Source: Isurus oxyrinchus (lineage: Eukaryota). Taken from it: a stretch of DNA of 64,000 nucleotides. Position numbers and translations under genes: made by a program. Numbering within the stretch: the stretch's first letter is position 1; every line of letters starts with the position of its first letter. Below, piece by piece: positions 200 through 44,235 of the stretch. The notes under the pieces were generated by a model. The model was not told the DNA's origin. It searched no databases and was given only the letters and a program-made list of their open reading frames with translations. The stretch is from NCBI GenBank assembly GCA_026770705.1, contig JANJGN010000009.1, positions 164,300,001-164,364,000 on the forward strand, written 5' to 3'.

Positions 200-610
200 G
201 AGACTTGTATATACATACCACCTTACACAGCCACAGGATGGTCCAAAGTGTTTTACAGCCAATGAAGTATATTTGAAGGATTGTCACTGTTGGAATTCAG
301 GAGACACAGCAATCAATTTACGCACAGCAAGCTCCCAAAAACAGCAAAGTGATAAGCAGATGATCTGTTTTGCTGATATTGATTGAAGGATAAATATTGA
401 ACAGGATGCTTGCGAAAGCTTCCCGGCTCTTCTTCGAAATAAGACATTTTTACATCCACCTGAAAGGTTAGACTTGGCCTCAGTTTATCGCCTCATCTGA
501 AAGAGGGCACATCCAACAGTGCAGCACTCTCTCAGCATTGCATCGGTGTGTCAGCTTAGCTTATTGTGCTCAGGTCCTGGAATGGGACTTGATCCCACAA
601 GTCTCTGATA
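200..610 (-). mobile_element. Deu-domain (SacSINE/AmnSINE-like) SINE
   Basis: Reverse complement of the gagtgctgcactgt..ggtgcc..ctttcagatgag core; homologous to copies at 8680-10085, 23790-24125 and 53200-53625. Confidence 0.65.
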
Positions 611-738
611 GAAAACATTTCATGGTCTAGATTTTCCACCTCCGTAACCACACAATAAATAGCCCATTTCAAGACATAACTAGGGTTTCTCGGTGGAATT
701 GTGGTGATGCACAAAGAACAACTCAGGAAATGTCACTT

Positions 739-1355
739 ATGTTATGACGTGGCAGATGGCGTGTGCCAGGCAGATTAAATCCACCAGGGAAACTTGATCC
801 CGCTATCACAACAGTTTTCCAATTAGTATTTATTTCTCGATGTGTGCCCTGAATTCAGAAGTAATAAGTCCACCAAGACTTCAGATTTTTTTTTAATCTA
901 AATTAAGCATTTATTAACAAAAGAAAAGATCTCAAGCACATATATGGGTCTACAAGTTACTACTATAATACTTCCTAAAACCCCTAATTAATCTGGCTTC
1001 TAGTTACGCCCCCGTTAATGCAACAGTAAAAAAGAACTAGATTTTAAACAGATCCAGCAAGCTAAACACAATACCCCGTACAGTAGCTTTTCCTAGTTTC
1101 AGTTTCTGTAGACAGCAGGTTTAATGTACAAATACTGGAGACTTCTCACACTTCTGGTAGATCTTATAATGGCTTCCTTCTGACACATATCATCATTCTC
1201 CTTTATACATGTTTCTCCCTTTAATGTATAAATTCCATTGTCCATCTGCCTTTGGAACTTTACCTTTTTCATAATATAAATCTTTTCACTATATTGTCAA
1301 TAACCCTTGAGAAAAATAAACATTCTTTAAGTTGCTTATCTGGCTATTTGTAAAC
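739..1355. mobile_element. Probable solo LTR / LTR fragment
   Basis: Starts TGTTATG; non-coding, LTR-like layout; no internal domain seen. Confidence 0.35.
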
Positions 1356-1383
1356 ATATATATATATATATATACATATATAG
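1356..1383. repeat. (TA)n microsatellite
   Basis: Direct inspection. Confidence 0.9.
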
Positions 1384-1499
1384 TCTACCCACCTTATCAT
1401 AGTACTTACTGAACATTAAATGACCAAGACATTGAATACTTTGAACCATAAAATTATACAGCACAGGGAAAGGTGATTCAACATATTACACCTACACGT

Positions 1500-2760
1500 G
1501 ACAGGAAAATTCCTCTTGTTACCTCTGGTTCTTTTGTTAATTACTTTAAATCAGTGTCTTCATACTGACACTTTTGCCACTGGAAACAGTTTCTCCTTCT
1601 TTGTATAAAGGTTTAGCATAACTTCCTTGTTTTTGTACTTTCTGGCTCTGTCTCTGAAGCCAAGGATCTTGTATGCTTTTAAACAGTTTTTTTCAACTTG
1701 TCCTGTCACCTTCAAAGATGTGTGTGTATATGCCCTGAATGTCTCTGTCCTGCACCTCCTCTAAAGTTCTACAGTATAGCTTATACTGTCTCCCTTCATT
1801 CTTCCTTCAAGTGTATCACTTCACACTTCAAGGTGCTAAATTTCATCTCCAGTGTGTCTGCCCATTTCACCAATCTCACTATGTCCCCATGAGGTCTGTT
1901 ACTATCCTCCTCACTACATTTCTTAGGTTTGTGTCATCTACAAATTTTGAAACTTTTCCTATATGCCCAAGTCCATTTCATTAATATATAAAAAAGAGCA
2001 ATGGTCACTTCCCTCCAGCCCTTCTCTCTTTTCTTTAGCTTATTTTGTATCTGTGGTGCCACTGTGCCTTTAATTTCAAGTGCTTCAAATTTGCAAACTA
2101 CTCGATTATGTGATACGTTATCAAGGGCCTTTTGAAAGATCATATAGACAATATTAACTGCTCAACTCTCATCAACCCTTTCTGTTACTTCATCAAAATA
2201 ACTCAATCAAGTTAGTCAAATATGACCTTCTCCTTAACAAATCCATGCAAGCTTTTATTTATTAACACTCACTTTTCCTAAGTGTCAATTGACTTGATCC
2301 GAGAATGTCTTTTAAAAATCCCTCACCACTGGCATCTGGTGTCTGACTGCCCTGCAATGTTTATCTCTCCCTCTTTTTGAACAGGGGTGTAACATTTGAG
2401 ATCCACCTGTCCTCCAGTATTATTCCCATTTCTAAGGAGGATTGGAAGATTGTGGCTGAAGCCTTCACAATTTCCACCCTTACTTCCCTCAGCAACCTAG
2501 GCTGCAATCGTTTGGACCTGGTGACTTTTCGGCTTTGAGTGTTGTCAACATTTTAAGCACCTCCTCTATATCTATATTATCCAAACCAATCTCTCTACTG
2601 TAATGTTGGCAACATCCTCTTCTTTAGTAAAGACAGATGCAAAGCACCTCAGCCATGCCCTCTGCCTCTATGTGATGATTGCCTTTTAGGTCCTTAATCA
2701 GCTTTGACCTTTCACTGGCCACCCTTTTACTATTTATATGTGTCATATCCCAATATATTC
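1500..2760 (-). mobile_element. Degenerate CR1 LINE ORF2 fragments
   Basis: Minus-strand remnant IFQKALDNVSHNR (DFQKAFDKVPH), similar to the other CR1 copies. Confidence 0.7.
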
Positions 2761-3018
2761 TAAACTTGGGGTTAAATTTTAAAAATTGACCACAAAAGAT
2801 GACAAAAAGGTGGCTTCCCAATTGGGTTTCCAGCAAAAACCTGTTCGGCAGACAGAGTTCCACGAAAGCCATCGAATCCGCTGCAAGTCATCCAAGCAGC
2901 CAAAGGTAATCAATAGCAAGGATAAAAGCAAAGTACTGCCGATGCTGGAAATCTGAAACAAAAACAAAAATAGCTGGAAAAACTCAGCAGGTCTGGCACT
3001 ATCTGCGGAGAGGGACAC

Positions 3019-3430: not shown

Positions 3431-4659
3431 AAGGGATCGAAATAGGCTAAAAGGCAGAGATAAAACAATGGATGGAAATACATTTAAAAATAATGGAAAT
3501 AGCTGGGAAAAGAAAAATATATATAAAAAATATAAAAACTTTATACAGTATTGGAAAAGGGGGATCGGAAAAGGGGTGGGAATGGAGGAGAGAGTTCATG
3601 ACCTGAAGTTGTTGAACTCAATATTAAGTCCAGAAGGCTGTAAAGTGCCTAGTCGGAAGATGAGGTGTTGTTCCTCCAGTTTGCATTGAGCTTCACTGGA
3701 ACAATGCAGCAAGCCAAGGACAGACATGTGGGCATGAGAGCAGGGTGCAGTGTTGAAATGGCAAGCGACAGGGAGGTCTGGGTAATGCTTGCAGACATTC
3801 CGAAGGTGTTCTGCAAAGCGGTCACCCAGTCTGCGTTTGGTCTCTCCAATGTAGAGAAAACAGCATTGGGAGCAGCGAATGCAGTTGACTAAATTGAGGG
3901 AAGTGCAGGTGAAGTTCTCCTTCACTTGAAAGGAGTGTTTGGGCCCTTGGATGGTGAGGAGGAGGGAAGTAAAGGGGTAGGTGTTGCACCTTCTGCGGTT
4001 GCAAGGGAAAGTGCCGTGGGAGGGGGTTGAGGTGTAGGGGGTGATGGAGGAGTGGACCAGGGTGTCCCGGAGGGAACAATCCCTGCAAAATGCCACCGGG
4101 GGGGCGAAGGGAAGATGTGTTTGGTGGTGGCATCATGGGCAATACCTTGAATGTGGGAGAAGGACTCCCCTCCTCCCAGCCTATTTCAACTTTGAGTTCA
4201 TCTGAGAACCAACCTCCTTGAAATTCAACTACAAGAAGCCTCATGGCTTACTGAGATCCCTCTGCTTTACAAGATCTTCACTTCAGCTAAAGTATCAATT
4301 TCATCCAAGAAACTATGGGCTTGCCTTGAAAGAGACTGAAATAATTAAATGTTGTAACCATATTATTTTTACTGTCCTCTATAACTAAGCGATGTATGTA
4401 TGAAGCAAGTGAGTGAGACATTGTGTTAAATTCCAGGGCAAGTGTGTGATAATAAATAACCTCCTTTACTTTTAAATGCACAGAAAGCTTGCTGCCGGAA
4501 ATATTTAATTGGGATTTTCACCCTGAGGGTAGGGAAACACACCCCTCTTGGACAAATATACTGATCGTAGGCAATGGACAGAAATGCGTAAATTCTGTCC
4601 ATGACAGATGATTATAAAAGACTTTTGGGTTTCCTTTTATGTTACCCATTAAAATATTC

Positions 4660-5235
4660 TTATACCTACACCACATGGACTGCAGAGGTTCATGAAGACA
4701 GCTCACCACCACCTTCACAAGGGCAATTAGGGATGGGCAATAAATGCTGGCCCAGCCAGTGATGCCCACATCCCGTGAATGAATAAAAACAAAAATTTCC
4801 TCTTTGTCCCTGTTAATTCCTGTTTCAGTTCTTCTCTGTACATCCGATATTCTACTGAACTATGACCCTGACACTTGCTGATTGAAAATAGATGCAGCAA
4901 TTCACCCAGGCTCCTTCGAGAGCACCTTCCAAACCCACCACCCCTACCATTTAGAAGGACAAAGGCAACAGATGCATGGGAACACCACCGCCTACAAATT
5001 CCCCTCCAAGCTTTACATCATCCTGACTTGAAACTATATCACCATTGCTTCACCGTGGCTGAGTCATACTCCTGGAACTCCCTTCTTAACAGCACTGTGG
5101 GCGTATCGACACTGTACAGGCTGCAGAAGTTCAAGGAGGCAGCTCACCACCACTTTCTCAAGGGCAATTAGGGATGGGCAATAAATGCTGGCCCAGCCAG
5201 TGATGCTCACATCCTGTGAATGAATAAAACAAAGT
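4660..5235 (+). mobile_element. Two adjacent LINE 3'-end copies (tail ...gggcaattagggatgggcaataaatgctggcc...tgaatgaataaaa)
   Basis: The same tail occurs at 4660-4795, 4890-5235 and 32425-32605, and on minus at ~62190. Confidence 0.7.
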
Positions 5236-5461
5236 CATCAATCCATTAGGAATAGTCCGTTTTAAGGGTAAAGTTCAGAGGGGGTGCAAATCGGTTGGTA
5301 GGAAGTTGGCCCACTTGTTATACAACCCACAATTTTGGAAAGGAAAGTTGATTCGGTGATGTCCCAATCCCACTGTCAGCAAAGGTTCTAGGCAGGTTTC
5401 TGCTACATTCCCTGGAACTGAGTCTACAGGAGAGTCCAAATGACATGATGTGTGAACCAAC

Positions 5462-6005
5462 AAACCAAAAACCAAAACAAAAACAGAATTACCTGGAAAA
5501 ACTCAGCAGGTCTGGCAGCATCGGCAGAGAAGAAAAGAGTTGACGTTTCGAGTCCTCATGACCCTTCGACAGAACTTGAGTTCGAGTCCAAGAAAGAGTT
5601 GAAATATAAGCTGGTTTAAGGTGTGTGGGAGGGGCGGAGAGAGAGAGAGAAGTGGAGTGGGGGTGTGGTTGGATGGACAAACAAGCATTTGGGGGTGGGG
5701 TGTGGTTGTATGGACAAACAAGCAGTGATAGAAGCAGATCATCAAAAGATGTCAACAACAATAGAACAAAAGAACACATAGGTGTTAAAGTTGGTGATAT
5801 TATCTAAACGAATGTGCTAATTAAGAATGGATTAAGCACTCAAGGTATAGCTCTAGTGGGGGTGGGGAGAGCATAAAAGATTTTAAAATATTTAAAAATA
5901 ATGGAAATAGGTGGGAAAAGAAAAATCTATATAATTTATTGAAAAAAGGAAGGGGGAAACAGAAAGGGGGTGGGGATGGGGGAGGGAGGATGGGGGAGGG
6001 AGGAA
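5462..6005 (-). mobile_element. Penelope terminal-repeat fragment
   Basis: Collinear with 2940-3590; carries a hammerhead variant. Confidence 0.75.
5538..5576 (-). ncRNA. Hammerhead ribozyme variant (core CUGUCGA, GUC cleavage triplet)
   Basis: Minus strand AGTT-CTGTCGA-A-GGGTC-atgag-GACTC-GAAA-CG-TC-AACT. Confidence 0.55.
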
Positions 6006-8679
6006 AAACCAAACAATATTCTTTGTCTCAGGAATGACAAGTCCAAAACTTGAATGTTGAGTTTTTATGGGATCCACAGAAGTATATCAGACTCTGATTC
6101 TGAAAAGAATACATGACCAAAATTAAGGTGACGAAGGCAGCCACCTTGGGACATAGATTGTAAGTAACTGAATAAAGTGCTGTCTTTGCAAATGCAGTTC
6201 TAAAAGAAGTGATTTATTTTGGGACCAAAGCCAAGGAATTACTGCTGGCAAGGTTATTGGATGAGTACTGGGATGATATTATACTTTCACTAATTCTTTA
6301 ATCAAAATGTTAACCCATGTAAAATAAATCAGTTGATGTCTCTGAAGTTGTAGGCAAAGCTATTTACCCATGAACATTGCCAACATTAACTTGTAGAGTC
6401 AAAAGGTTTTGACATTGCAACAGGACACCAGAAGTGAGAGTATATAAATTTGTGAATGAAGTATTACCACAACTGCATGATTTATTGATGTGATTATAGG
6501 TTGTTTCCTGTCTAGCGCAGTGGGGAATGTCTTTCTCCATACACATAACAGAGGATGTGGTACATCTGCTTCAAACTGTCAGAAAATGCATCAAATAATG
6601 TCAAACACCTACACTTCCTGGTGGAGGAAATATTAATCCCACTTCTCCCGTGCACGCCCTCTCAGGGATGAAATCCCATACATGATATACAGTTTAACCA
6701 TTTCTAAAGTTAACACAGAACATTGCTTCTTAACCAGTTCCCATTTTTTACTAAGACTAGTAGGTCTTCTGTGGTATCACTTAGGAGCAAGTCCAAGATC
6801 TGGGCTACTGCGCTTGGTGAGTAATGAGGACTTGCCCTGTTCCATTGTGACCTCCCAAATTTGGCTCCCTGATTCACCCCCTGGTGTGGTACACAGTTCA
6901 TCAGCCCAATCAGCTACTGCTGGATTAATCAGAAAGCAAACAGGAGCCCTATAATCCCATAAAAGTAACAGCAGGTTGTGTCTTCGCTAATCATTTCTTT
7001 CACCCAAGCTTGGACACTTGAGGGCTGAATTGCTTCTTCTGTAAATTGGTGTAACCTGGCCAAGGGAAGAAACTTAGAGACTGAACCACTCCCCTCCCCT
7101 CCACCACCACCTCTCCCCACCCCCCAACCATCCTCCCCCTCTGCTCACCAGCTCCCAGTCCAAAGAGAGTTCAAATCTGATTGCTCGGGAGTGTTTAACT
7201 TCTGAATGGTTACCTTGATGGCTGCACATGATTTTGTAAAAAATCTAAAATATATAAAAAGGAAGGGAAAATTGTTCTATATTTTCCATGGCCTCTCTAT
7301 GCTGCAGCAGGTACCCCAGCCTTGAACCGCTCAGTCAACCTCTCCTGCCAAGTGAGGAGGGAAACTGAGCTGCAGTTCAAGTGGGGTGATACCATTCACA
7401 TGACCCCAGGGTCAGATCTGAGGTAAAGAGAAGTTCCAATCCAACAAAGTTCTGCCTCCCTGTGGAGCCAAAGAGGCAAATCTGCCTGGTTTATTTGTAT
7501 CCTCCATCACAACCATTGTATGCTTCTGTTCAATGGGTTTAAGTTCCAACTGTTCTAATTCTAAATGTCACCCTCTAGTCTGTATGTTCCCCCATTGCTG
7601 ATTATTTTCATAATAGGCAAAAATACATTAAATGCCTCAATGGCAGATCATTAAGTTGGGTTAGGCACGGGATTTCAAAGAATATAACATTGCGCTGACT
7701 GTAGATATAAAGGCCCAGAGAGATCCTTGGCCCTTTTCACAAGGCTGTTCTGTTGTCAAATCAAAGGTGGAAATTATCCTGAGTGTAAATGACTACATCC
7801 CTTCGCTTCCCATTTTATGCGATCAGTTCAACCCGAAACTGTTTTTGCTGGTTACGTTAGAGTTAACTATGGCTCAGCAAGAAGAAGGTTTTGAAAACAT
7901 TTCATTTATTTGTTTTGCTCTTTTTTCTGACGGTATGTCACATGAGGTGAAAAGGGGAGTTTGGGGTGGATTTTTTTATCTTCTCAGCTAAAAGCCTGCA
8001 ATTGGTCAAGCTAAAGTAAATGTTGTGGCCTCAATCTTCTACTCCCAGCTGTCCATTGTAGCAGTGTCAAAATTGATATCCTCATAGTCACAGGGTAGAG
8101 GAAACCTGCATCCATCAGCGTGGGCTGTGCTGACCCAGCCTAATGACTTATCACTTCATTTGTGAGGCAAATGTACATTTGATTGACTGTGGCTTGTGAG
8201 AGAGTAGAGTGGTGCACTGGGTTTAATGGAATGCCTTAGTGCTTTCAGGGAAGTATATGGGGTACTGGAAACTAGGTTACATGACTGTGCTTTTGTTGAA
8301 TACTATACTGGTACATTAGATCAAATAACAGATCAACTGTTTTTTTGACCAGCATAATAAGAAATTCTGGTTGCATGTATGCACTTCTTAAATTATTTGT
8401 CACTTGGTCTGTAATTTTAGAGCTAACCCTTTTTTAATACTGCTGTTTTCAGATGATGAGAAAAGCTCATGTTGGGATACTTAATTTGGGTTTCCAGTCG
8501 ATGGCCTCCTGAGCCTCCTACTCGGAGAGCGGGCGGACACATCATCCATGCCCTGAGCAGAGTTGGTTGGGTGCTGTCACTGCCATCGAGAACTTGCCAA
8601 GAAATTTCATCAAGATGTCCCGAAAGTGACCTTCCTTTCTGAAAAGAGGGAAGACCTCTCACTTCCTTGAATCACAAGG

Positions 8680-32500: not shown

Positions 32501-34801
32501 CAAGAAGGCAGCTCACCACCACCTTCTCAAGGGGCAATTAGGGATGGGCAATAAATGCTGGCCCAGCCAGCGAAGCCCACATCCCCCGAATGAATAAAGA
32601 AAAAACAATCATCAAATTGAATTTGAAAGAATTTCCAGGGCTTTTTGTTTTCTTTTGTAGATTATGGCAGCCAGCATTTACTGCCCTTCCCTAACTGGCC
32701 TTAAACTGAGTGGCTCCCCAGGCCATTTCAGAGTCAACCACACTTGCTTTGAGTCTGGATTCAAATGTAGGCCAGGCCAGGTTAGCAGATTTCCTTCCCT
32801 AAAGGGACATTAGTGAGGATAATCAATGATAGCTTCATGGTCACCACCACTGAGACTAGCTTTCAATTGCAGATTTAATGAATTGAGTTTAAATTCCACC
32901 AGCTGCTATGGTGGGAATTTGAACCCATGTCCCCAGAAGATTAACCTGGGCCTCTGGATTACTAGACTAGTGACGTTACCACTATGCCAACATATTCCCT
33001 GAATTGCTGCCTCATTTTAGTTAAAGATCTAGTTCACAGTCTCTAATGAGGCTTTCCCCACTCTTCTGCCATAACTTTGACAGGAGACTGGCAAAATCCT
33101 GAATGAAACGGTACCAGCAACCATCCCAGTGGGAGATCGGCTGCAGAAATTCCAGGCACTAAATTCCCATGGATTGAAATTTCATATCATTCGTTCATTG
33201 CTTAGCCTGGTGGAGGTCCACCCAAGCCTGATACACCCTTGAGTCCTGCGGTTTATCAAATTTTGCAAGAAATATGTTAAAGAAAGTAATTTATCTTGAT
33301 TGGGAGGCAATTTTAATCCAATGAGTCTGTCAAACAACTCATGGGATTAGGTGCAATATTGGCTTTACAACCAGCTCCCTACAGGAATTTTAATGGCCAG
33401 CGTAAACACAGTGTTCTGCCCCATCCCATGTGTTTCTTTCCCACAGCGTGAGGCTAAGATTACCCCCTTGTCTTTTTGTTACCAGTAAGTATTGTGCTTA
33501 AAACCCACCTGCAGCAGCCCACTGTCATCTTTTGTTCACAGCGCCGGTTGCATATTTAAATCAAGACATAAAAATCCATTTTAGCGAGAACAAAAAGCAG
33601 AATCCCATAGATGCTGGAATTCAGAAACAAAATCAGGAAATTTTGGAAAAGACATTACTCATTTTAACAGTTCGAAACATAGAAAAAGGGACCATAAGGA
33701 GGCCATTCAGCCCAATATGTCTGTGCTTGCCAAAAAAAGAGCATTCCAGCCTGATCCCACCTTCCACCTCTTGGTCCATGGCCCTGTAAGTTAGAGCACT
33801 TCAAGTGCATATCTAAGCAGTTATTTTAAATACAGTGAGGGCTTCAGCCTCTATCACCCATTCAAGCAGTGAGTTCCATATCCACACTAGCCGTCCTCAA
33901 CTCCCTCCTAATCCTTCTACCAATCACTTTAAATCTATGCCCCCTGGTTTTTGACCTTTCTGCTGAGGGAAATAGATCAGTCAGCATCTGTGGAGAAAAC
34001 AGACAGGGTAACATTTCAATGATAAAAACAAAAAAACTGCGGATGCTGGAAATCCAAAACAAAAACAGAATTACCTGGAAAAACTCAGCAGGTCTGACAG
34101 CATCAGCGGAGAAGAAAAGAGTTGATGTTTCGAGTCCTCATGACCCTTTGACAATTCTGTCAAAGGGTCATGAGGACTCGAAATGTCAACTCTTTTCTTC
34201 TCCGCTGATGCTGCCAGACCTGCTGAGTTTTTCCAGGTAATTCTGTTTTTGTTTAGGGTAACATTTCAGTTCTGACGAAGAGACTATATCTGAAAGGTTC
34301 ATCTCAGCTGTTCTATCCAGCACTGCTGACTGACAATTTCCTCCTTTTCTAATCAAAGCAAGTATTTTTATAGCAGGGAGAGATCAGTAGAAGCTGACTC
34401 ACGATGCTCTGCTGCCGTTAGGTTACCACATCTATTGAGAAAAGCAAATTTCATCCCTCTTGGCACAGGTTAGAACTGGGACGTAACGCACCTTCCAACT
34501 CAATGCTTTGTCCTCACTAATTTAAATGGACGGACTATCACGGGTCAAAGTGTGCGCCGGACAGTAATTAGCCAGGTGCCCAGGAGCATGAAAGTAGATA
34601 GGTTCGGCCACAAGTGTAACTAAATAAATCACACATCTAAGTTAACTCTGTGGATTCAGAAAACTATCTTGATGAAACCATTTTGTCTCCTACCTACCTA
34701 GGCAAAATAAATATCTGTACTATTTTATATGGAGCATTTTACGTTGGGCATTCTTCATCATTCTCCTCATTTGGGCCATTTTTGTCAAACTGAAAATATA
34801 G
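23544..34801 (+). CDS. Gene 1: CD300/CMRF35/pIgR-like single IgV receptor; join(23544..23583,26570..26902,28053..28101,34702..34801), 173 aa
   Basis: All introns GT-AG with matching phases (1,1,2). The spliced product is open: MDLSFHLFMISFS-VTYAALNGP...VTC...KYWCKGNTQEAC...DEGLYWCG...LKITE-GPKVLLSISPSDKEIL-RQNKYLYYFIWSILRWAFFIILLIWAIFVKLKI*. It has a signal peptide, a V domain with the extra Cx7C pair, a stalk and a TM. Confidence 0.85.
23790..24125 (+). mobile_element. Degenerate Deu-domain SINE (gene 1 intron 1)
   Basis: tRNA-like head ggttgtgggttcaagtccca; same tail as the other copies. Confidence 0.55.
24731..24837. mobile_element. 107-bp Harbinger-type MITE
   Basis: Imperfect TIR ggccagggttttcc / ggaaaattccgccc; TSD ATT; sits in a Penelope hammerhead remnant. 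Confidence 0.75.
25369..26385. mobile_element. Harbinger-type MITE containing a CR1 tail insertion (~25919-26085)
   Basis: TIR gcctggattttcac / gtgaaaatccaggc; GTT on both flanks. Confidence 0.75.
26570..26902 (+). CDS. Gene 1 exon 2 (IgV domain, CD300/pIgR type)
   Basis: 333-nt phase-1/1 exon, aacag|...G|gtagg. Motifs: VTC, KYWC-x7-C, GRITI.D, FTVTM..L...DEGLYWCG. Confidence 0.93.
27273..28646. repeat. Inverted duplication: arms 27273-27668 and 28225-28646, flanking gene 1 exon 3
   Basis: Arms are reverse complements, shown by the near-identical spurious ORFs 27215..27484(-) and 28451..28687(+). Confidence 0.92.
28053..28101 (+). CDS. Gene 1 exon 3 (stalk GPKVLLSISPSDKEILR)
   Basis: ctaacag| and AG|gtaaat; 49 nt. 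Homologous to gene 2 exon 3 (PK...DKE.LR), including the downstream intron sequence. Confidence 0.85.
28165..29046 (+). mobile_element. CR1 3' fragment interrupted by the right arm of the inverted duplication
   Basis: RRFTRMLPGL-like sequence at ~28180-28220 resumes as EERL..LGLF at ~28650; tail runs to 29046. Confidence 0.7.
29047..32058 (-). mobile_element. Non-autonomous Harbinger element with decayed Myb/SANT gene
   Basis: TIR gggcagaattttcc / ggaaaattcctccc; TSD TAT. Minus-strand remnants resemble the Myb gene of the 48318-52750 element. Confidence 0.78.
34019..34254. mobile_element. Palindromic Penelope insertion (97-bp arms 34057-34153 / 34158-34254) with 14-bp TSD
   Basis: Near-perfect inverted arms with a 4-nt loop; agggtaacatttca at 34005-34018 and 34255-34268. 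Confidence 0.88.
34702..34801 (+). CDS. Gene 1 exon 4 (transmembrane, intramembrane Arg, stop)
   Basis: Pyrimidine tract plus tag| acceptor. In phase 2 it reads QNKYLYYFIWSILRWAFFIILLIWAIFVKLKI*. Confidence 0.85.
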
Positions 34802-34989
34802 GTGATTAAAAACTGGTAAGTTGTTGATTTGAATCATTTCTGTGCATTTAAGTTTAAGCACAACACATTTGGAGGGATTCCTTATAATCTGCTTATTATA
34901 TTTCAGAAAGGATAGCAGAACCATGACAATATATTTCTGAAGTAAACGTGCACTCATTTTGTCTTGTATTGAGATCATTTTTTGAGGGG

Positions 34990-36795
34990 ACTTTTTATTG
35001 ACATTGATGCTAAAAGGTTAGTTAAGGAAAAAGTGGGACCTATCAGAGATGAAGATGGAAACTTGTGTGTAGATGCAGAGGCTGTGGGAAGGGTTTTGAA
35101 TGAATATTTCGTCACCGTGTTTACAAAGGAAAGGGAGGATGTAGATATAGTAGTCCAGGAGGAACACTGCGAGATATTAGATGGGTTAGTCATAAAGAGA
35201 GAGGAAGTACTCGAAGGGCTGAAATGCTTGAAAGTTGATAAGTCACCAGGGCCAGATGGATTGTTTCCAAGGCTGCTGAAGGAAGTCAGGGAGGAGATAG
35301 CAGATGCTCTGAGGATGATTTTCCAATCTTCACTAGATACAGGGGAGGTACCGGAGGACTGGAGAAATGCAAACGTAGTTCCATTGTTTAAAAAGGGATC
35401 TAAGGACATGCCAAACAATTATAGGCCAGTTAGTCTTTGTGAGCAAATTAGTAGAATCAATCCTGAGAGATAGGATTATCTGTCATGTGGAAAGGCATGG
35501 ACTAGTCAGGGATGGTCAGCACGGATTTGTTAAAGGAAAGTCTTGCCTCACAAATTTGATTGAATTCTTTGAGGAAGTGACAAGAAGGGTTGATGAAGGT
35601 AGTGCAGTGGATGTTGTGTACATGGATTTTAGCAAGGCATTTGACAAAGTCCCACATGGCAGATTGGTCAGGAAAGTAAAAGCCCATGGGATTCAGGGTA
35701 ATGTGGCAAATTGGATAAAAGGTTGGCTTTGTAACAGGAAACAAAGGTAATGGTTGATGGATGCCCTTGCGAATAGAATGTTGACTCAAGTGGTGTTCCA
35801 CAGGGCGTGGTGTTGGGACCCTTGCTGTTTGTGTTATGTATTAATGATTTGGACATGAACGTGGAGGGCACGATTGGGAAATTTGCAGATGACACAAAGA
35901 TTGGCCAAGTAGTTGATAGTGTAGAGGATAGCCATAATCTCCAAACTTATATAGATGGGTTGGTGGAGTGGGCGGTAAAGTGGCAGATGGATTTTAACAT
36001 AGAGAAGTGTGAAGTCATACATTTAGGGAGATCAAACAGTTACAGGGATTACATAATAAATGGGAATATACTAAGAGGGGTAGATGAAGTGAGAGATCTT
36101 GGCGTACAAGTACACAGGTCCCTGACGGCAGCAGTTCAAGTAAACAAGGTTGTAAAGAAGGCATATGGAAAGCTCTCCTTCACTGGCAGAGGTATAGAAT
36201 ATAAAAGTAAGGATATAATGTTGGAATTGTATAAAACACTGGTGAGGCCACAACTGGAGTATTGTGTGCAGTTCTGGTCACCACATTACAGGAAGGACAT
36301 AATAGCTCTGGAGAGAGTGCAGAGGAGGTTTACAAGAATGTTGCCAGGGTTAGAAAAGTGGAGCTACGAGGAAAGATTGGATAGGTTGGGGTTATTTTCC
36401 TTAGAACAAAGAAGGCTGAGAGGTGATTTGATTGAGGTATACAAAATTATGAGGGGAATAGATAGAGTGGACAGGATCAAATTGTTTCTCTTGGTGGAGA
36501 ATTCTAGATTCAAGATAAGTGGCAGAAGCTGTAGGGGGACATGAAGAAGAACTTTTTTACGCAGAGGGTGGTGGGTGTCTGGAATTTGCTGCCCAAGTTG
36601 GTGCTAGAGGCAGAAGATTTAAACTCTTTTAAAAAGTACCTGGAACTGCACCTTAAGTGCTGTAAGCCGCAGGTCTATGGGCCGGGTGCTGGAAGGTGGG
36701 ATTAGAAAAGGCACCTGGGTGTCCTCGGGCTGGCATGGACAAGATGGGCTGAATGGCCTCCTCCTGTACTGTAACTTTTCTAATGTTCTATGGTT
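34990..36795 (+). mobile_element. 5'-truncated CR1 LINE (RT domain, frameshifted)
   Basis: KSPGPDG, DWRNANVVPLFKKG, NYRPVSL, QHGFVKGKSCLTNL, DFSKAFDKVPH, KFADDTK, RPQLEYCVQFWSP. Confidence 0.95.
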
Positions 36796-39700
36796 AAGCA
36801 GCTTTCAGGTGAAAGGTAGATACAGTCAGCATTTATTTACTGAATCTTCTAAATGTGCTGTACTTTATATTCAGAATATTAAGTGCATTAACATTTTACC
36901 AAAGTAGAATGATTACTACAAAACATACATTTAAACATACCCCAAAACACAATGGGGAGAGTTTCAACTTGGGAATAAATGTGAGTGGGTTTGGTACAGC
37001 TGATTAAAAGGGGCAATACTGGCGATGCATCAAGAAAATGGGGACAACCCCCAAACTTCCACCTTTAACTTCAGCGCGTTTTGTTGTGTGTGGCGAACTC
37101 TACCATGGGGCAGTAGAGTGGCAATTTTAATACCCAAAGATCTCATTTTCAGCTGTTTTAACTGGGATTTCTGAATTTAACTGCGTGCGCACATGTTTCA
37201 CAAAACTTGCCAAGGATATGAAAGTAAGAGGACAGCGGAATTGGAGGGGACGGAACAAGTGACGGGCTGGAAATCCTTTGAATACTGAGATCTCACACCT
37301 GTTTTCATGGCCAGTTGAAAGCCTTTGACTCACAGGCCTGTTCTGAAAGTGTGCTTTCACAGTGCTAGTGGGCAGTGTGCATGGTCCTGTGACGGTACAT
37401 CCCCAGAGTGAGTGGCCCTCTCTGAGGGTTCTCCTTCCTCTTCCTGCACCACATCCTATCTCCAGTCATCTGGAGGCCCCTGAATCTCCATCTCCGAGGG
37501 TAAGGCACACTGAGGATCAGCTTATTTCCTTATCTGAAGCTGTCAGTATGCAGATGGCTGGAGGGTCACCTCCGGTTTTCTGTCTCTCCCTGGGGTTCGG
37601 TGCTGTCTTCTCCTGCAAGGAGGAAACTAAAAGATGTATGAAAAATGGAATGTGCATATGAGCATTTGAATTAGGAGCAGGAGTAGGCCACTCGGCCCCT
37701 CCAGCCTGCTCCATCATTCAATAAGATCATGGCTGATCTGAATGTAACCTCAACCCCACATTCCTGCCTACCCCCGATAACAAGTCACCCCCTTTGTTAA
37801 TCAAGAATCTATCCAGCTCTGCCTTAAAAATATTCAAAGACTCTGCTTCCACCATCTTTTGAGGAATAGAGTTCCAAAGACCCTCAACCCCCCAAGAGAT
37901 AAAAGTTTATCCTCATCTGTCTTAAATGAGTGACCCCTTATTTTTAAACAGTGACCCTGTTGTAAGGGTGGCTGAGTTGTACTATTAATGATAGAGTTGA
38001 GCTGCAGACACTTCTTGGGCGGAAACATTAAGTTTATTTACAACATACTCAGCAGCAACCACACATGTGCTTTCAACTCCAACTCTATCTCTACATCATC
38101 TGCTGAGGTAGCCCGCGCTACTCTCTTGTTGGTTACTACAGATCATGTGGTCCTTCCTAATAATCATTATTCTTAAAGGTATATTACACACTAAATAAAA
38201 CCATCATTACTACCTTCGTCCCCCTTTAAATTTGTCTACATATATTTACAAGTACATATTTTTCAAGGCAGTAGAATATTTACATTGGGTAAGGAATTTA
38301 CAAGTTCAGTCTTTCAGGTGGTTTCCTGGTACGTGTGGAACGTCGCAGCTCCACAGCTTCAGATTCTTTGTCAGGAACCTCCTTTTCTTGAGTTGCCTGA
38401 ACATCAGGTGCTTCGATGGGCACTCGCAGGTCTGTATCCTTCAACTCTTACAGGAGCATCAGACATGCCAATCCTCAACAGGAAATGCAGACCCGGTCAC
38501 GGTTACTGGTTGAACCAAATCTTGGTGATTTGTCTCTTTCCTCTTTAAATGGTCCACATGTTTACAGAGGATCTGGCCTTCCACCACCATGTGGTAATTT
38601 AGAGGTCCAGTCACCGCACTTATTTCACCCAGTAACCACTTTGATCCTTCCCCGAAGTTTATCACGTATACCAATTCTCCCATGGTAAATTTCCTCTCAC
38701 GACTACGCCAGTCGTATGTAGTTTTCTGGCTTCCCTGACTCCTTTCCACCTTCTCCTCTAAATTTGGTATTATTCAGCTCAATCTCGTCCTGAGACAGCA
38801 TTTCAACAATAATTCCACACCATGTGACACCTGCTGTTGTGTGAGGGGTGGTCCTGTAATGAGAAAGAAAGTGTGCTAGCTTGGTTGCCAGGGAATCACC
38901 AGTTAGCTTTCTCATGCCTGCCTTGAACGTTTGATTGGCCCTTTCAGCCAGTCCGTTTGAGGAAGGGTGGGGACGGTGCAGTTTTCACATGAGTGATATC
39001 GTTGAGGCTGATAAACCGTTGAAACTCAGCACTCATAAATGCCATGCCGTTATCAGAAACGACTACTTCTGATGGTCCATGAATGGCAAAACTCTGATGT
39101 AGTTTCTCAATTGTAGCAGAAGACATTGGTGACTTCACCTCATATACATCCAACCACCTTGAATGGACTTCAGCAATGAGCAGAAACATTGTTCCCAGGA
39201 AAGGTCCAACATAGTCAATGTGTAACCACACCCAGGGTCTATCTGGCCACTCCCATGGGTGTAACAGAGCTGTCACTGGCAACTTTTGCAGTTGCTGACA
39301 TTGCCCACAATTCTTTACCAAACTCTCTATTTCGCCATCCATCCTTGGCCACCATAAACAGCTGCATGCAATGGTCTTCATTCAGGAAATTCCTGGATGG
39401 GCACTGTGTAGTTCAATTAAAAGTGGCCGCCCTCCCTTTGGAGGAACTATCACTCGTGCTCCCCACAATAAGATACCATCCTGGCTGGTTATTTCATGTC
39501 TTCTGTTGAAGTACGGTTTCATTTAATCAAATACGGGCTCCTGTGACCAACCATGTAGCACTTGTTCTCGTACTTGAAGTAGGGCCGGGTCCCAACTTGT
39601 CCAGTCTCTGGTGTGTTGAGCACATACTGGTGAGGAATCTAAGAAATTTAACAGTAAAACAAGTCCCTGTGGAACTGGGATGTGCTCATCATTTTCTTAC

Positions 39701-39799
39701 AAAGGCAAATGTCTAAGGGCGTCGGCGTTTGCGATTTGATTGCCAGGCCTATGTATGAAAGTGTATTCATACGCTGCCAGGATTAAGGCCCTATTATAT

Positions 39800-40398
39800 T
39801 TCTGTATCTTCTTTTTACGTGTCTTCTTCTTTCTAGCACAGACTTTAATCTCGGCCTCCTTTTTGACTTCACTGTTGGCCAGACTTCTCTCAGATGCCAG
39901 CTCAACTTGCCTGAGCTCAGTAGCTGAGTCCCCCAAACTTTCATTATCTGTCTGCTTCTTGGAAAATTCTGCAACTTTTGCTACCAAAGCCTCTCTGGCT
40001 CCATTTAGCTGATTCTTCACCTCTTCCGTCTTGTTTTTGTTTTTTTTTGCTGCCTCCTGGAAAATTGAGCATCGTTGTGTCTTCTCTGCCAACTCATCCT
40101 TCAGTTTGTTCAGGGAAGTGCTGAATTCTCTCTGTTCTCTTCATACTTTTCCAGTGGTATAAACTTTGACCTGAGGGAATCTTGTCGTGTGTGAAGGTCT
40201 TTCAGCAGGTTTTCTGATTCCCTGCGAAGGTTGTTCACTTCGTCGCGAACTCTGTCGTCAAGCAGGGTCCCTTCGAGTTCCTTCTGCTGTTCTTCCAGGT
40301 TTTGGCTTAAGACAGCCTGCGTTTCTTCAGGCTGTTGAGTCCTTACACACTCCTTTTCCAAAACAAGAACGCTTCCAGCTTCCTTTTGGAATCCCAGT
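39800..40398 (-). pseudogene. Captured host coiled-coil coding fragment (UACA/RAI14/ANKRD24-like) replacing Gypsy RT
   Basis: E/K-rich heptad peptide LKDLHTRQDSLRSKFIPLEKYEE..EFSTSLNKLKDELAEKTQRC..EAAKKNK (one frameshift) between protease and the RNase H C-terminus; no RT motifs. UACA resemblance is from memory. Confidence 0.6.
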
Positions 40399-41796
40399 GG
40401 CCAATCAAGGTTGATTTCCCTTAGCCAATTTCACCCTAGAAGGCTTGGTCCTCTGCCTCTCAATACTAACACTGGTAGCTTTGCCGATTGGCTTCCATAA
40501 TGGATAGTTAGTCTGCTATTGCCTTGTACTTGAATGTCTTCACCCGTATATGTTTTTAGCTTGGCAGCTTGTTCTAAGTTTAACTGATGTTCACCATTAT
40601 TCAAATATCTGAAAGTATGTTTCCCAATTACTGTAGTGGAAGCTCCTTTGTTCACTTCCATTCTAACAGGTCTGCCATTTACTTTCACTGTGTGACAGAT
40701 ATACGTTCTGTCTTTCTACCTTTCAGATTAAACAACGAATAAATGTCAGCATTTGCTGGTCCAGGCTCTTCTACATTGTAGATTTCATTGGGCTTCTTCT
40801 TTTGTTTACAAGCCTACTTGAGTATTTCCTCGCACTGCCTCTTCGTATGTCCATTTCTGTGACAATAGTAGCATTCGATTTTTTTTAAACTGCCAATTGC
40901 TAAAAGATGGATTGCTTCCACCTCTATCAAAATGATTTTTCAATCTCACTGCTAAGTTATTTTCTTTTATTCTTCAGCTAGCGGGAGCTGTTTCCCACTT
41001 CTCGCCAGAGTCTCACTTTCTCGCATCTCTTTCGGCTGAGGTTTCCCACCTGATCTGGAGGACGGCGCCATTTGGCACACCCTGCGTTGCTTTTGAATCT
41101 CTTACTGCGCGTTCCATGGCCAGTGCTAGCTCTAGCACCTTCTTAAAATCCAGATTCACTTCAGACAGTAATTCTTTTCTGAATAGCGTCCTCTTTCACA
41201 CCACGCACTAAATGATCTCTAAGTATGTCGTTCACAGTCATACCGAACTCACAATGTTCCATTAACTGCTTCAACGTTTCCATGTAGCATGCAATTGTCT
41301 CAGCCGGGGCTCTATTTCACAAATTAAACCTAAACCTCTGCATCATGGCTGAGGGCTTGGGTTGAAACTGACTCTTCACGAGGTCCAGCAATCCATCGAA
41401 ATTCTTAGAATCTGGGGCACTGGGTACCATCAAATTTTGAATCAAACCATGGGTGTTGGTCCCATAAATACTCAAGAGGATCACTCGCCTCTTCTGTTCC
41501 CCTGTAATCTCGTTTGCTTGAAAAAAGAACGTGAGGTGTTCTACGTATTGAGATCAATCATCTGTGGCTAGTTCAAAAGGATCAGTTCCCCCAAATTGTG
41601 GCATTTCAAGAGAGGGTAACTTCTTCAATGCTAACAGAGTTTGCTGCTTACAATCACTGGGCAAGGTACAGTGCTGACTTCTTTCTAACTTGATTTCTTC
41701 TGTTGAATCCTATCCAGTCCTCATCGCCAGTTTGTTGTAAGGGTGGTCCAGTTATACTATTAGTAATAGAGTTGACATATCCTGGGTGGAAACATT

Positions 41797-42450
41797 GGGC
41801 AGGATTTTTAGCTCGGTGTGCAGGCGCGGGGCCCTACATACAGGAGCGTAAAATAGTGAGCAATGACGTCAGGTGAGCATCCCTGTGTCATATTTTGGTC
41901 AGCGGGCACACGCGAGAGTCAGCAGGGCGCCCAGCGACAATTGAGAGGGCTGTTAAGCTCATTAGTCAATTAATTGAAGTGAATTTTTCCCTACCCGGCG
42001 GGTGATTAGGCCAAGTGGCCTCTGCATTCTTTCGTGAAACCTCATCCACAGATGGGATGAGGTTTCGAACAGCGATTTAAAAAAACCAATAAAAATTTTA
42101 AAAACTCATTATTCCCATGTCCCTACTCATGTGACAGAGTCACATGTTTTCCTTATTTTTAAAATCTTTATTTTTAATGTCAAAAATCTTCAGCTCCCTG
42201 AGGCAGCTCTGTACCTTCAGGGGGTTTACCCTGAGCTCACCCTCGCACATGCACTCACCTCAGCGCTCACACTCCTCCAGCCCCCACGCCGGCAGTGCTG
42301 AGGTCATCGGTGCGCATTTCACCCTCTCTGGCCGTTAATTAGCCAGCCAGCATGAAATCGCGGTGGGGGCCTGATCACAGGCAGCGGGTCATTGTGTGGC
42401 CAGTCCCTGGGCCTGCCCACCTAACCCGCCTGACAAGGGAAAATCCTCCC
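41797..42450. mobile_element. Harbinger-type MITE inside the Gypsy 5' LTR
   Basis: TIR gggcaggatttt / aaaatcctccc; absent from the other LTR. Confidence 0.85.
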
Positions 42451-43559
42451 AATGAAGTTTATTTACAACATACTCAGCACCACCTACATGTGTGCTTTCA
42501 ACTCCCACTCTATCTCTACACTGCCACTTGCCCACGCTCTTCTCCCATTCGTTACTACAGATCATGTGATTCTTCCTAAAAAGCGTTATTCTTAAAGGTA
42601 CATTACACACTAAATAAAGCCATAAATACTACTGACCCTCCAGTACTAGATTCTCCCAAAGAGGAAACATCATCTCCACATCCACCCTGTCCAGACCCCT
42701 CAGGATCTTAAAGGTTTCAATTAGGTTGCCTCTTTTCTTCTAAATACAAGCACAACCTGTCTAGCCTTTGATCATAAGACCATTCCTGGTATTAGTCTAG
42801 TAAACTTCTCTGAACTGCTTCTAATGTATTTACATCTTTCTTTAAATAAGGAGACCAGTACTGTACACAATACAGTGGTGTGGTCTCACTAATGCCCTGT
42901 GCAACTGAAGCATAACCTCCCTACTTTTGTAATCAATTCTCCTCACGCTAAATGATAATATTCTATTAGCTTTCCTAATTACCTGCTGTACCTGTGTACT
43001 AACCTTTTGTGATTCATGCACTAGGATACTCAGATTCCTCTGAATCTGAATCTCAGAACTCTGCAATCTCTCACTATTTAGATAATATGCTTCTTTTTTA
43101 TTCTTCCTGCCAAACTGGACAATTTCACATTTGCTCACATTAACCTCCATTGGCCTGATCTTTGCCCATTCACTTAACCTATCTATGTCACTTTGTAGCA
43201 TCTTACATCCTCTTCACAATTTACTTTCAAACTTTGGTTTCCTATTAGCCAATCTTCTAGCCATGACAATATGTTTCCCCCTACACCATGAGCTCCTATT
43301 TTCTGAAATAACCTTTGATGTGGCACTTTATCAAATGCCTTCTGGAAAACTAAGTAAAGCACATCCACCAGTTCCCCTTATCCACAGCACATGTGACTCC
43401 TTGAAAGAACTCCAATAAATTGGTTAAACATGATTTCCCCTTTACAAAACCAGGTTGACTCTGCCTGATTGCCGTGAATTTTTCTAAATGCCCTGCTATA
43501 ACATATTTAATAATATCTTCTAACATTTTCCCTTTGACAGATATTAGGCTAACGGGCCT

Positions 43560-44235
43560 GGTGTTGCAAGAATGGAAAGCCATTTGTGGAGGATCACTGT
43601 GAGGGATGGGTATGGTATTGTATTATGGTGGGGATGAGTATCAGTGGTGGATGGTCAGACGGGGTGTGAGGAGCTGCATGGACAGAGAGGGATGGGTACT
43701 GGAGAAGGCTTGGGAAGGCAGAGTAAGGGGGACACAGATCAAGGTATATTTGAATGTGCCAAGTCACTCACTTTCCTGTTCTGATTAGATCATTAAACCA
43801 CTCCCAGCAGAAGGAGTGTCCCAGTCCTGCTCATCCCCTCAGTGACTTTCGACCACACCTCTACACCAGGCTTCTCCCTCCCATCGGCAAATAACAGAAA
43901 CTCACAACGGGCCCCTTCCAACCTAAAGCATCATCTCCAGGGAGGTATCAGTGAAGTTTGGTGCTGCCTTGTGACGTGGTGAGTCCGCAGCTCCAGGTTC
44001 TGACTCTGTTTAAGCAGCTGTACAGTTGCTTCAAATCACATCCTCTCAGGGTCCTTTTAAATAGTTGAGCTGAAATAGGCAGATTCAGGTCATCAACACA
44101 CCCACTCAGGCTAATTGCTGGGAAATCTGGAAGTTAGAAGATAATGGAATGGCTGCTTTGAGAAGCTACTGACAAATGGGTTTCTGAACCTCCCTGACAC
44201 CACTGCCGGCAGGTTGAATAGTTAAAATCCAGTCC
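43560..44235 (-). mobile_element. Harbinger terminal fragment with start of Myb/SANT gene
   Basis: Minus strand KAAPNFTDTSLEMML; TIR-like aaaatccagtcc at the right end. Confidence 0.55.

What the first reader, a model, noticed from the sequence alone, without database searches (positions are those of the whole stretch)
39800..40398. Gypsy provirus whose reverse transcriptase is replaced by a captured UACA-like host segment
Seen: straight after the protease end (..LG*NWLREINLDW) there are ~600 bp of coiled-coil coding sequence on the element's strand, then pol resumes at the RNase H C-terminus (ALILAAYEYTF.HRPG..ANADAL). RT and most of RNase H are missing, while LTRs, PBS, PPT and TSD are retained. 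The peptide LKDLHTRQDSLRSKFIPLEKYEE..EFSTSLNKLKDELAEKTQRCSIFQEAAKKNK recalls the UACA coiled coil (from memory, not a search). Inference: template-switch capture of a host mRNA produced a non-autonomous chimeric element mobilised in trans, analogous to retroviral gene capture.
Basis: partly seen in the sequence, partly recalled or inferred. Interest (0 to 1): 0.72.

Follow-up and report, generated by a model that had tools for sequence, protein, structure and literature searches.

The report
Shark retrotransposons carrying a UACA fragment
A dead shark jumping gene has its copying enzyme replaced by a piece of the host gene UACA; many copies share this build, the piece likely came second-hand from an older transposon family, and its reading frame shows signs of selection, so it was likely made into protein while the element spread.

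Summary
Confirmed. A minus-strand Gypsy element (37958-42633, target duplication GACCC) has 640 bp between protease and RNase H end, where RT-bearing sisters have 1310-1337 bp. The filler is DNA from the 2.7-kb coiled-coil exon of host UACA (70% identical): two blocks joined across a 441-bp deletion, plus a non-UACA tail. It belongs to a family: 190 exact hits to a 25-mer junction, roughly a thousand copies. A second LTR family with unrelated LTRs carries up to 1.55 kb of the same exon fused to a Gag-like start, and some members share the identical deletion and tail, so this family likely inherited the piece by recombination between elements. All host DNA lies inside one exon, so an mRNA intermediate cannot be shown. 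The fusion is in frame with protease in 26 of 31 copies. On the stem, second codon positions changed at 0.30-0.42 of the third-position rate, against 0.89 among dead copies, which points to a translated, constrained fusion. LTR gene capture is known (Tan 2016; maize Bs1); the scan noted other captures in other sharks. Not found in print for UACA.

The parts
37953..37957 (.). Target-site duplication GACCC (left)
   Evidence: same 5-mer at 42634-42638
37958..38214 (-). 3' LTR (about 256 bp)
38215..38228 (-). Polypurine tract
   Evidence: sequence printed
38300..39791 (-). RNase H C-terminal end and integrase remnant, broken by stops and frameshifts
   Evidence: Pfam rve and Integrase_H2C2; 82-90% per 100 bp to RT-bearing sisters
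39792..39911 (-). Non-UACA tail; about its first 60-70 bp align with the tail of the second LTR family (B); origin unresolved; followed by a stop in most copies
39912..40021 (-). UACA block 2 (host locus L039 5989-6098; about residues 1168-1205 of P0005)
40022..40360 (-). UACA block 1 (host L039 about 5196-5538; about residues 903-1019 of P0005), joined to block 2 at a 9-nt host repeat; frameshift near 40135 in this copy
40361..40410 (-). Linker between protease and UACA, absent from RT-bearing sisters; about 60 bp longer in subfamily A3
40411..40715 (-). Aspartic protease; its last ~90 bp are A3-type (crossover near 40500); stop codon near its end in this copy
40716..41630 (-). gag remnant, broken
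   Evidence: translation; 77-86% per 100 bp to RT-bearing sisters
41715..41729 (-). Primer-binding-site-like stretch (resemblance to a tRNA-Ser primer is recalled, not tested)
41733..41796 (-). 5' LTR, inner part
41797..42451 (.). Later 655-bp insertion of an unrelated repeat inside the 5' LTR
   Evidence: parts of it match 14 of 166 fetched loci
42452..42633 (-). 5' LTR, outer part
42634..42638 (.). Target-site duplication GACCC (right)

Best explanation
This is one dead copy of a large non-autonomous Gypsy family in which RT and most of RNase H are replaced by a fragment of the host UACA coiled-coil exon fused in frame to Gag-protease; the fragment was likely inherited by recombination from an older UACA-carrying LTR family, and the fusion was likely translated and under selection while RT-bearing sisters likely copied the element in trans. 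Order of events (inferred): (1) an LTR element with a Gag-like start (family B) took up about 1.55 kb of the UACA exon (host 4550-6100), probably by RT template switching; (2) a 441-bp deletion arose at a 9-nt repeat, in frame; (3) the shortened piece plus B tail moved behind the protease of an unrelated Gypsy (A3 type); (4) that cassette recombined into the RT-bearing sister lineage, giving A2 (keeps RT end and RNase H) and A1 (this copy). Predicted product: Gag-protease-coiled coil ending at a stop, with integrase out of frame. The most likely job of the coiled coil (inferred, untested) is to multimerise the element's own Gag-protease so that its RNA is packaged with helper RT and integrase.
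For: Shown: all 41 DNA matches (40 of 3943 candidates scored) hit the segment, most across both junctions; 150 of 150 scored protein matches of 12645 candidates; 190 exact 25-mer junction hits against 0 for the reversed control, a motif present in 5 of 34 sampled copies, hence about 1300 copies by rough arithmetic. Host exon: 911-codon open frame, 84% identical to Mustelus UACA-like over 908 aa. Identical deletion joint and shared tail in 7 family-A and 8 family-B sequences aligned with the host. On a host-rooted tree the A copies form one long-stemmed group among B copies (placement inside B poorly supported). 23 of 25 loci fetched with the B Gag-like start carry UACA DNA within 1.5 kb; that start scores 0.90-0.95 to gag-type clusters. 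24 of 30 loci found with the A2 RT-end/RNase H piece share gag, protease and/or integrase with the window and lack UACA, 5 are A2, 1 covers integrase only. The window is a mosaic: 88% to A3 vs 74% to RT sisters at 40500-40401, but 84% to sisters vs 77% to A3 at 40600-40501. Junction spacing is a multiple of three in 26 of 31 measurable copies, of 34. Codon position 2/3 ratio: net A-B 0.42 (95% bootstrap 0.24-0.68), among A copies 0.89 (0.72-1.10); repeated by pairwise mapping 0.30 (0.14-0.58) for A1-B1 and 0.43 (0.20-0.76) for A3-B1; Gag/protease positive control 0.12 (0.03-0.29).
Against: No protein or trustworthy RNA evidence. Selection is weaker than on Gag/protease and not significant on every branch: A1-A3 0.47 (0.16-1.09), net B-host 0.56 (0.28-1.03), net between B subfamilies 0.66 (0.36-1.20). 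The neutral control measures genomic decay, not RT error bias. 20 of the 34 A copies were chosen for long frames, which biases the in-frame count upward. Pfam does not recognise the B Gag-like piece and a protein search found no relatives. Two B-type loci lack UACA altogether (2 of 25) and different subfamilies lost different parts of the exon, so no single part is indispensable. Trans-mobilisation and the multimerisation role are inferences only.
Confidence: 0.62

Rival explanations
1. Passenger cargo: same capture and second-hand transfer, but the UACA piece did nothing; at most the frame stayed open to keep the transcript stable, and the third-position excess reflects RT mutation bias.
For: Repeated, different deletions of the exon in B; A diverged to about 48% protein identity from shark UACA; several branch tests include 1.
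Against: Position 2/3 ratio 0.30-0.43 with intervals excluding 1 on the A-B path; an open-frame requirement alone would remove stops, not amino-acid changes; the fragment was kept through at least three backbone swaps.
Confidence: 0.25
2. RNA-level benefit: the host-like sequence shielded the element from silencing or produced small RNAs against UACA, as described for Drosophila telomeric elements with captured piRNA-gene fragments.
For: Precedent in PMC13534243 (passages); high copy number.
Against: Family A is only about 70% identical to host, and that paper found almost no targeting at 79-82%; synonymous sites diverged fastest, the opposite of selection on RNA identity; UACA is not a known silencing gene (own knowledge).
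Confidence: 0.06
3. Direct capture of UACA mRNA by this Gypsy family at the present junctions, independent of family B.
For: Short A-rich similarities at the right junctions of A1 and A2 with the RT-bearing sister fit template switching (by eye).
Against: Same deletion joint, same non-host tail and shared differences from host in A and B; left crossover lies in protease between Gypsy subfamilies.
Confidence: 0.05
4. Independent later insertion or assembly artefact at this one locus.
For: None found.
Against: Same junctions in dozens of dispersed copies; contigs of DNA runs labelled as two different organisms cover all 30 bins.
Confidence: 0.01

Closest known systems
LTR-mediated retrocopies in metazoans (Tan et al. 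2016, PMC5131818; passages read)
   Same: Part of the internal retrotransposon ORFs is replaced by host coding sequence, both LTRs are kept, no poly-A, short similarities at joints; further rounds of retroposition are allowed for.
   Different: Those were identified through lost introns and have one or a few insertion sites in the passages read; here the piece is intra-exonic, amplified to about a thousand copies or more, passed between LTR families and in frame with Gag/protease.
Maize Bs1 LTR element (review PMC13317346, passages read; primary papers not held)
   Same: LTR element carrying host gene fragments that form a chimeric ORF reported as transcribed and translated.
   Different: Plant; three host genes; proposed host function. 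Here a vertebrate, one identified host gene, constraint seen during the element's own spread, and all examined copies decaying.
Replication-defective transducing retroviruses with gag-onc fusions (recalled, no call)
   Same: Host coding sequence fused in frame to gag in place of pol; helper-dependent.
   Different: A Gypsy retrotransposon with no env seen; the cargo is a structural coiled coil lacking UACA's ankyrin repeats, not an oncogene.
Drosophila telomeric elements with captured piwi/aub/nxf2 fragments (PMC13534243, passages read)
   Same: Repeated retention of host fragments; high copy number.
   Different: Non-LTR elements, 140-235 bp fragments acting through piRNAs; here the signal is on the protein frame.

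Membership tests
Ty3/Gypsy LTR retrotransposon | Paired LTRs with a short target-site duplication, PBS and PPT | tested here: met
Ty3/Gypsy LTR retrotransposon | Domain order gag-PR-RT-RH-IN | tested here: met
   PR then IN in the window; RT and RNase H between them in sister copies
Ty3/Gypsy LTR retrotransposon | Clade placement by RT phylogeny | not tested
   No reference RT set held; a Mag-like look is recalled only
LTR-mediated retrocopy (Tan 2016 type) | Host coding sequence replaces part of the internal ORFs between two LTRs | tested here: met
LTR-mediated retrocopy (Tan 2016 type) | Intron loss showing an mRNA template | tested here: inconclusive
   All captured DNA (host 4550-6100) lies inside the single exon 3698-6412
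LTR-mediated retrocopy (Tan 2016 type) | Microsimilarity at the primary host-element switch points | not testable with these tools
   No uncaptured parent of family B was found; the 9-nt repeat at the internal deletion is shown
Non-autonomous element mobilised in trans | Lacks RT yet is dispersed in many copies, with an RT-bearing relative sharing its LTRs | tested here: met
   target duplications of other copies were not checked one by one
Bs1-like or gag-onc-like translated chimera | Host fragment in frame with element ORF | tested here: met
   26 of 31 junction spacings in frame; natural open frames cross the junction
Bs1-like or gag-onc-like translated chimera | Transcribed and translated product | tested here: inconclusive
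   Codon-position bias supports past translation; no run on record as RNA
UACA (vs paralogs RAI14, ANKRD24) | Best protein and DNA match to the UACA locus | tested here: met
   (named full-length hits are UACA, apart from one weak insect coiled-coil hit); B copies about 75-85% to the exon; paralog loci were not fetched
Family B as Gypsy | Gag, protease, RT, integrase domains | tested here: inconclusive
   LTR pairs and gag-type Atlas hits; no Pfam hit; no pol remnant matched sampled Gypsy loci

The most novel reading that the evidence does not exclude
Shark LTR retrotransposons domesticated a host coiled coil: the UACA exon became a working module of the elements' own Gag proteins, was selected at the protein level, and spread as a cassette between unrelated LTR families, reaching thousands of copies in lamniform genomes. 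This is domestication in reverse, host to transposon.
Probability: 0.4. Interest if true: 0.8.

Novelty: new variant of a known kind. Interest (0 to 1): 0.62.

Why it matters
Gene capture by LTR elements in animals is usually seen as rare, low-copy retrocopies. Here one captured exon seeded several high-copy families, moved between backbones and shows protein-level constraint. If real, it is a vertebrate retrotransposon counterpart of gag-onc retroviruses and Bs1, with enough copies to measure selection on host cargo during transposition. Practically, these copies yield false 'uncharacterized' genes (two basking-shark RefSeq models are family members) and will confuse UACA annotation and read mapping in sharks.

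Tried and rejected
Single-sequence protein search, Pfam, PDB and Atlas (best 0.80) did not identify the segment; only the profile search did. Nei-Gojobori omega (net A-B 0.31, A-A 0.54) was set aside because transition bias lowers it and the bootstrap crashed; codon-position distances were used instead. L005 (interrupted) and L034 (truncated) were dropped, leaving 33 A and 8 B sequences. A1 vs RT-sister selection test had no power (net divergence near 0). No host source was identified for the B tail: no match in the 10-kb host stretch or to P0005, and all 150 genome matches were family-level at 75% or less apart from the query itself. No uncaptured parent of family B among 25 loci. No RNA holder listed; two runs only guessed to be RNA had contigs over the left junction, not used as evidence. 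No tRNA gene in the window, so the primer tRNA was not tested. No absolute age: no calibrated rate was obtained. Literature: no paper with UACA + LTR retrotransposon + shark, none for shark genome + Gypsy + LTR retrotransposons + Lamniformes, none relevant among 20 of 112 listed for two of UACA/retrotransposon/chondrichthyan or (listings only). Repbase and Dfam could not be searched, so an unannotated consensus entry may exist there.

Full report
Observation. The window holds a minus-strand LTR element from 37958 to 42633 with a 5-bp target duplication GACCC. Its LTRs match at 207 of 245 aligned bases, and the 5' LTR is split by a later 655-bp insertion. Protease (40431-40715) and integrase (38944-39381) are recognised by Pfam. 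This copy is broken by a stop at the protease end and a frameshift near 40135.

What is missing. A piece of RT end plus RNase H kept by a variant copy was used to find relatives. Of 30 loci, 24 share gag, protease and/or integrase with the window and lack UACA, 5 carry UACA followed by the RT end and RNase H (form A2), and 1 covers only integrase. A related locus shows the RT catalytic motif in that interval. The interval is 1310-1337 bp in five such sisters, 639-642 bp in two A1 copies (640 in the window) and 1202-1219 bp in three A2 copies.

What replaced it. A profile of 19 natural copies hit only two proteins of 7982 scored, both shark UACA-like. In the 1.84-billion library it gave 7 hits: two basking-shark 'uncharacterized' models that are family members, ray and bony-fish UACA, two unnamed assembly proteins and one weak insect coiled coil. 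The host gene is at G000:C25, with a 911-codon open frame 84% identical to Mustelus UACA-like over 908 residues and bounded by AG and GT. The window matches it at 70.1% over 40338-40013. Alignment shows block 1 (40360-40022, host about 5196-5538), block 2 (40021-39912, host 5989-6098), a 441-bp deletion at the 9-nt host repeat GCTGAAGAA, and then a tail that is not UACA. The genome is a shark's by these homologies (inference).

It is a family. All 41 DNA matches hit the segment, most across both junctions at 88-90%, and all 150 scored protein matches passed. A 25-mer at the protease-linker junction has 190 exact hits and its reversed control none. Five of 34 sampled copies carry that motif exactly, which gives about 1300 copies, roughly 600-3000, by my arithmetic on a sample biased to well-preserved copies. 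Copies are about 4 kb with LTR pairs mostly 77-90% identical, so the burst is old. DNA runs labelled as two organisms cover the whole stretch.

The capture is second-hand. Searching with UACA residues outside the window's segment gave 226 matches. Nineteen fetched loci carry host 4550-6100 in various deleted forms at about 75-88% identity. They share no LTR, gag or pol similarity with the window's element, and most show LTR pairs of their own. Their UACA is preceded, in one natural open frame, by a Gag-like start (Atlas gag-type clusters 0.90-0.95; no Pfam hit), and 23 of 25 loci found with that start carry UACA. Eight B copies have the same deletion joint and a tail homologous to the window's, and A and B share differences from host. 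On a host-rooted tree, 33 A sequences sit on one long stem (0.28) among 8 B copies. The window is also a mosaic: sister-like in gag, protease start and integrase, A3-like from about 40500 to 39800. The primary capture happened in B or an ancestor, and because it lies wholly inside one exon an mRNA template cannot be shown.

Was it translated? The protease-to-UACA spacing is a multiple of three in 26 of 31 measurable copies, and a natural 438-codon frame runs from gag through protease into UACA; 20 of the 34 copies were chosen for long frames, so this count is biased. Most copies end the frame with a stop before RNase H, leaving integrase out of frame (by eye). Among A copies the three codon positions diverged alike (0.140, 0.132, 0.147), as expected for dead DNA. 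On the net A-B path they diverged 0.216, 0.167 and 0.395, a 2/3 ratio of 0.42 (0.24-0.68). A second method gave 0.30 (0.14-0.58) and 0.43 (0.20-0.76), with Gag/protease at 0.12 as positive control. Against this, A1-A3, net B-host and the net B-subfamily test have intervals that include 1, and no RNA or peptide evidence exists.

Mechanism. Shown: structure, UACA source, copy number, shared deletion and tail, mosaic backbone, frame. Inferred: template switching for capture and transfers, copying in trans by RT-bearing sisters, translation of a Gag-protease-coiled-coil fusion. Speculative: the coiled coil multimerises the element's Gag-protease and helps its RNA into particles with helper enzymes. 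The main rival is passenger cargo with mutation bias (0.25).

Comparison. It works like the LTR-mediated retrocopies of Tan et al. 2016 (passages) and resembles maize Bs1 (review passages) and gag-onc retroviruses (recalled). It fails to show the intron loss that defined the Tan set, so membership is inconclusive on that feature. It differs in copy number, serial transfer between families and constraint on the captured frame. Targeted literature searches found no report; subscription papers, Repbase and Dfam were not searchable. The scan's own notes describe other host captures by shark Gypsy elements in other genomes (unchecked, not used as support), and none for this sequence.

Verdict. Real, a new variant of a known kind; interest 0.62.

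Noticed in passing
window 40700-39700 vs L135 (G000:C9:165396500-165404500, about 1.06 Mb away): A neighbouring copy is 93-100% identical per 100 bp over this 1 kb but mostly 77-93% elsewhere, which suggests gene conversion between nearby copies.
   Followed up: partly
L040-L058, L136-L160: A second large LTR family (B) carries up to 1.55 kb of the same UACA exon fused to a Gag-like start, with several distinct internal deletions and one rearranged subfamily.
   Followed up: yes
L119-L126: Subfamily A3: same UACA cassette on a sister backbone about 70-80% identical to the window, longer linker, most of integrase gone.
   Followed up: partly
G000:C1:29545689-29546075 (L124): 95% identical over residues 2-130 to basking-shark protein XP_078401457, while the other 23 matches are 71-85%; possibly an insertion shared between genomes.
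   Followed up: partly
window 41797-42451: Unrelated 655-bp repeat inserted in the 5' LTR; parts recur in 14 of 166 fetched loci.
   Followed up: partly
window 34054-34257: Perfect-looking hairpin, 100-nt arms 96% complementary; similar sequence interrupts other loci such as L054 and L005, so probably a small repeat family.
   Followed up: no
window 34973-36760 and 42640-43620: Decayed LINE (CR1/L2-like, recalled) reverse-transcriptase fragments; the Gypsy element sits inside one such repeat.
   Followed up: no
L139 and L140 (G000:C2:94991913-95001419): Two B-family loci with identical scores in opposite orientation about 6 kb apart: an inverted duplication.
   Followed up: no
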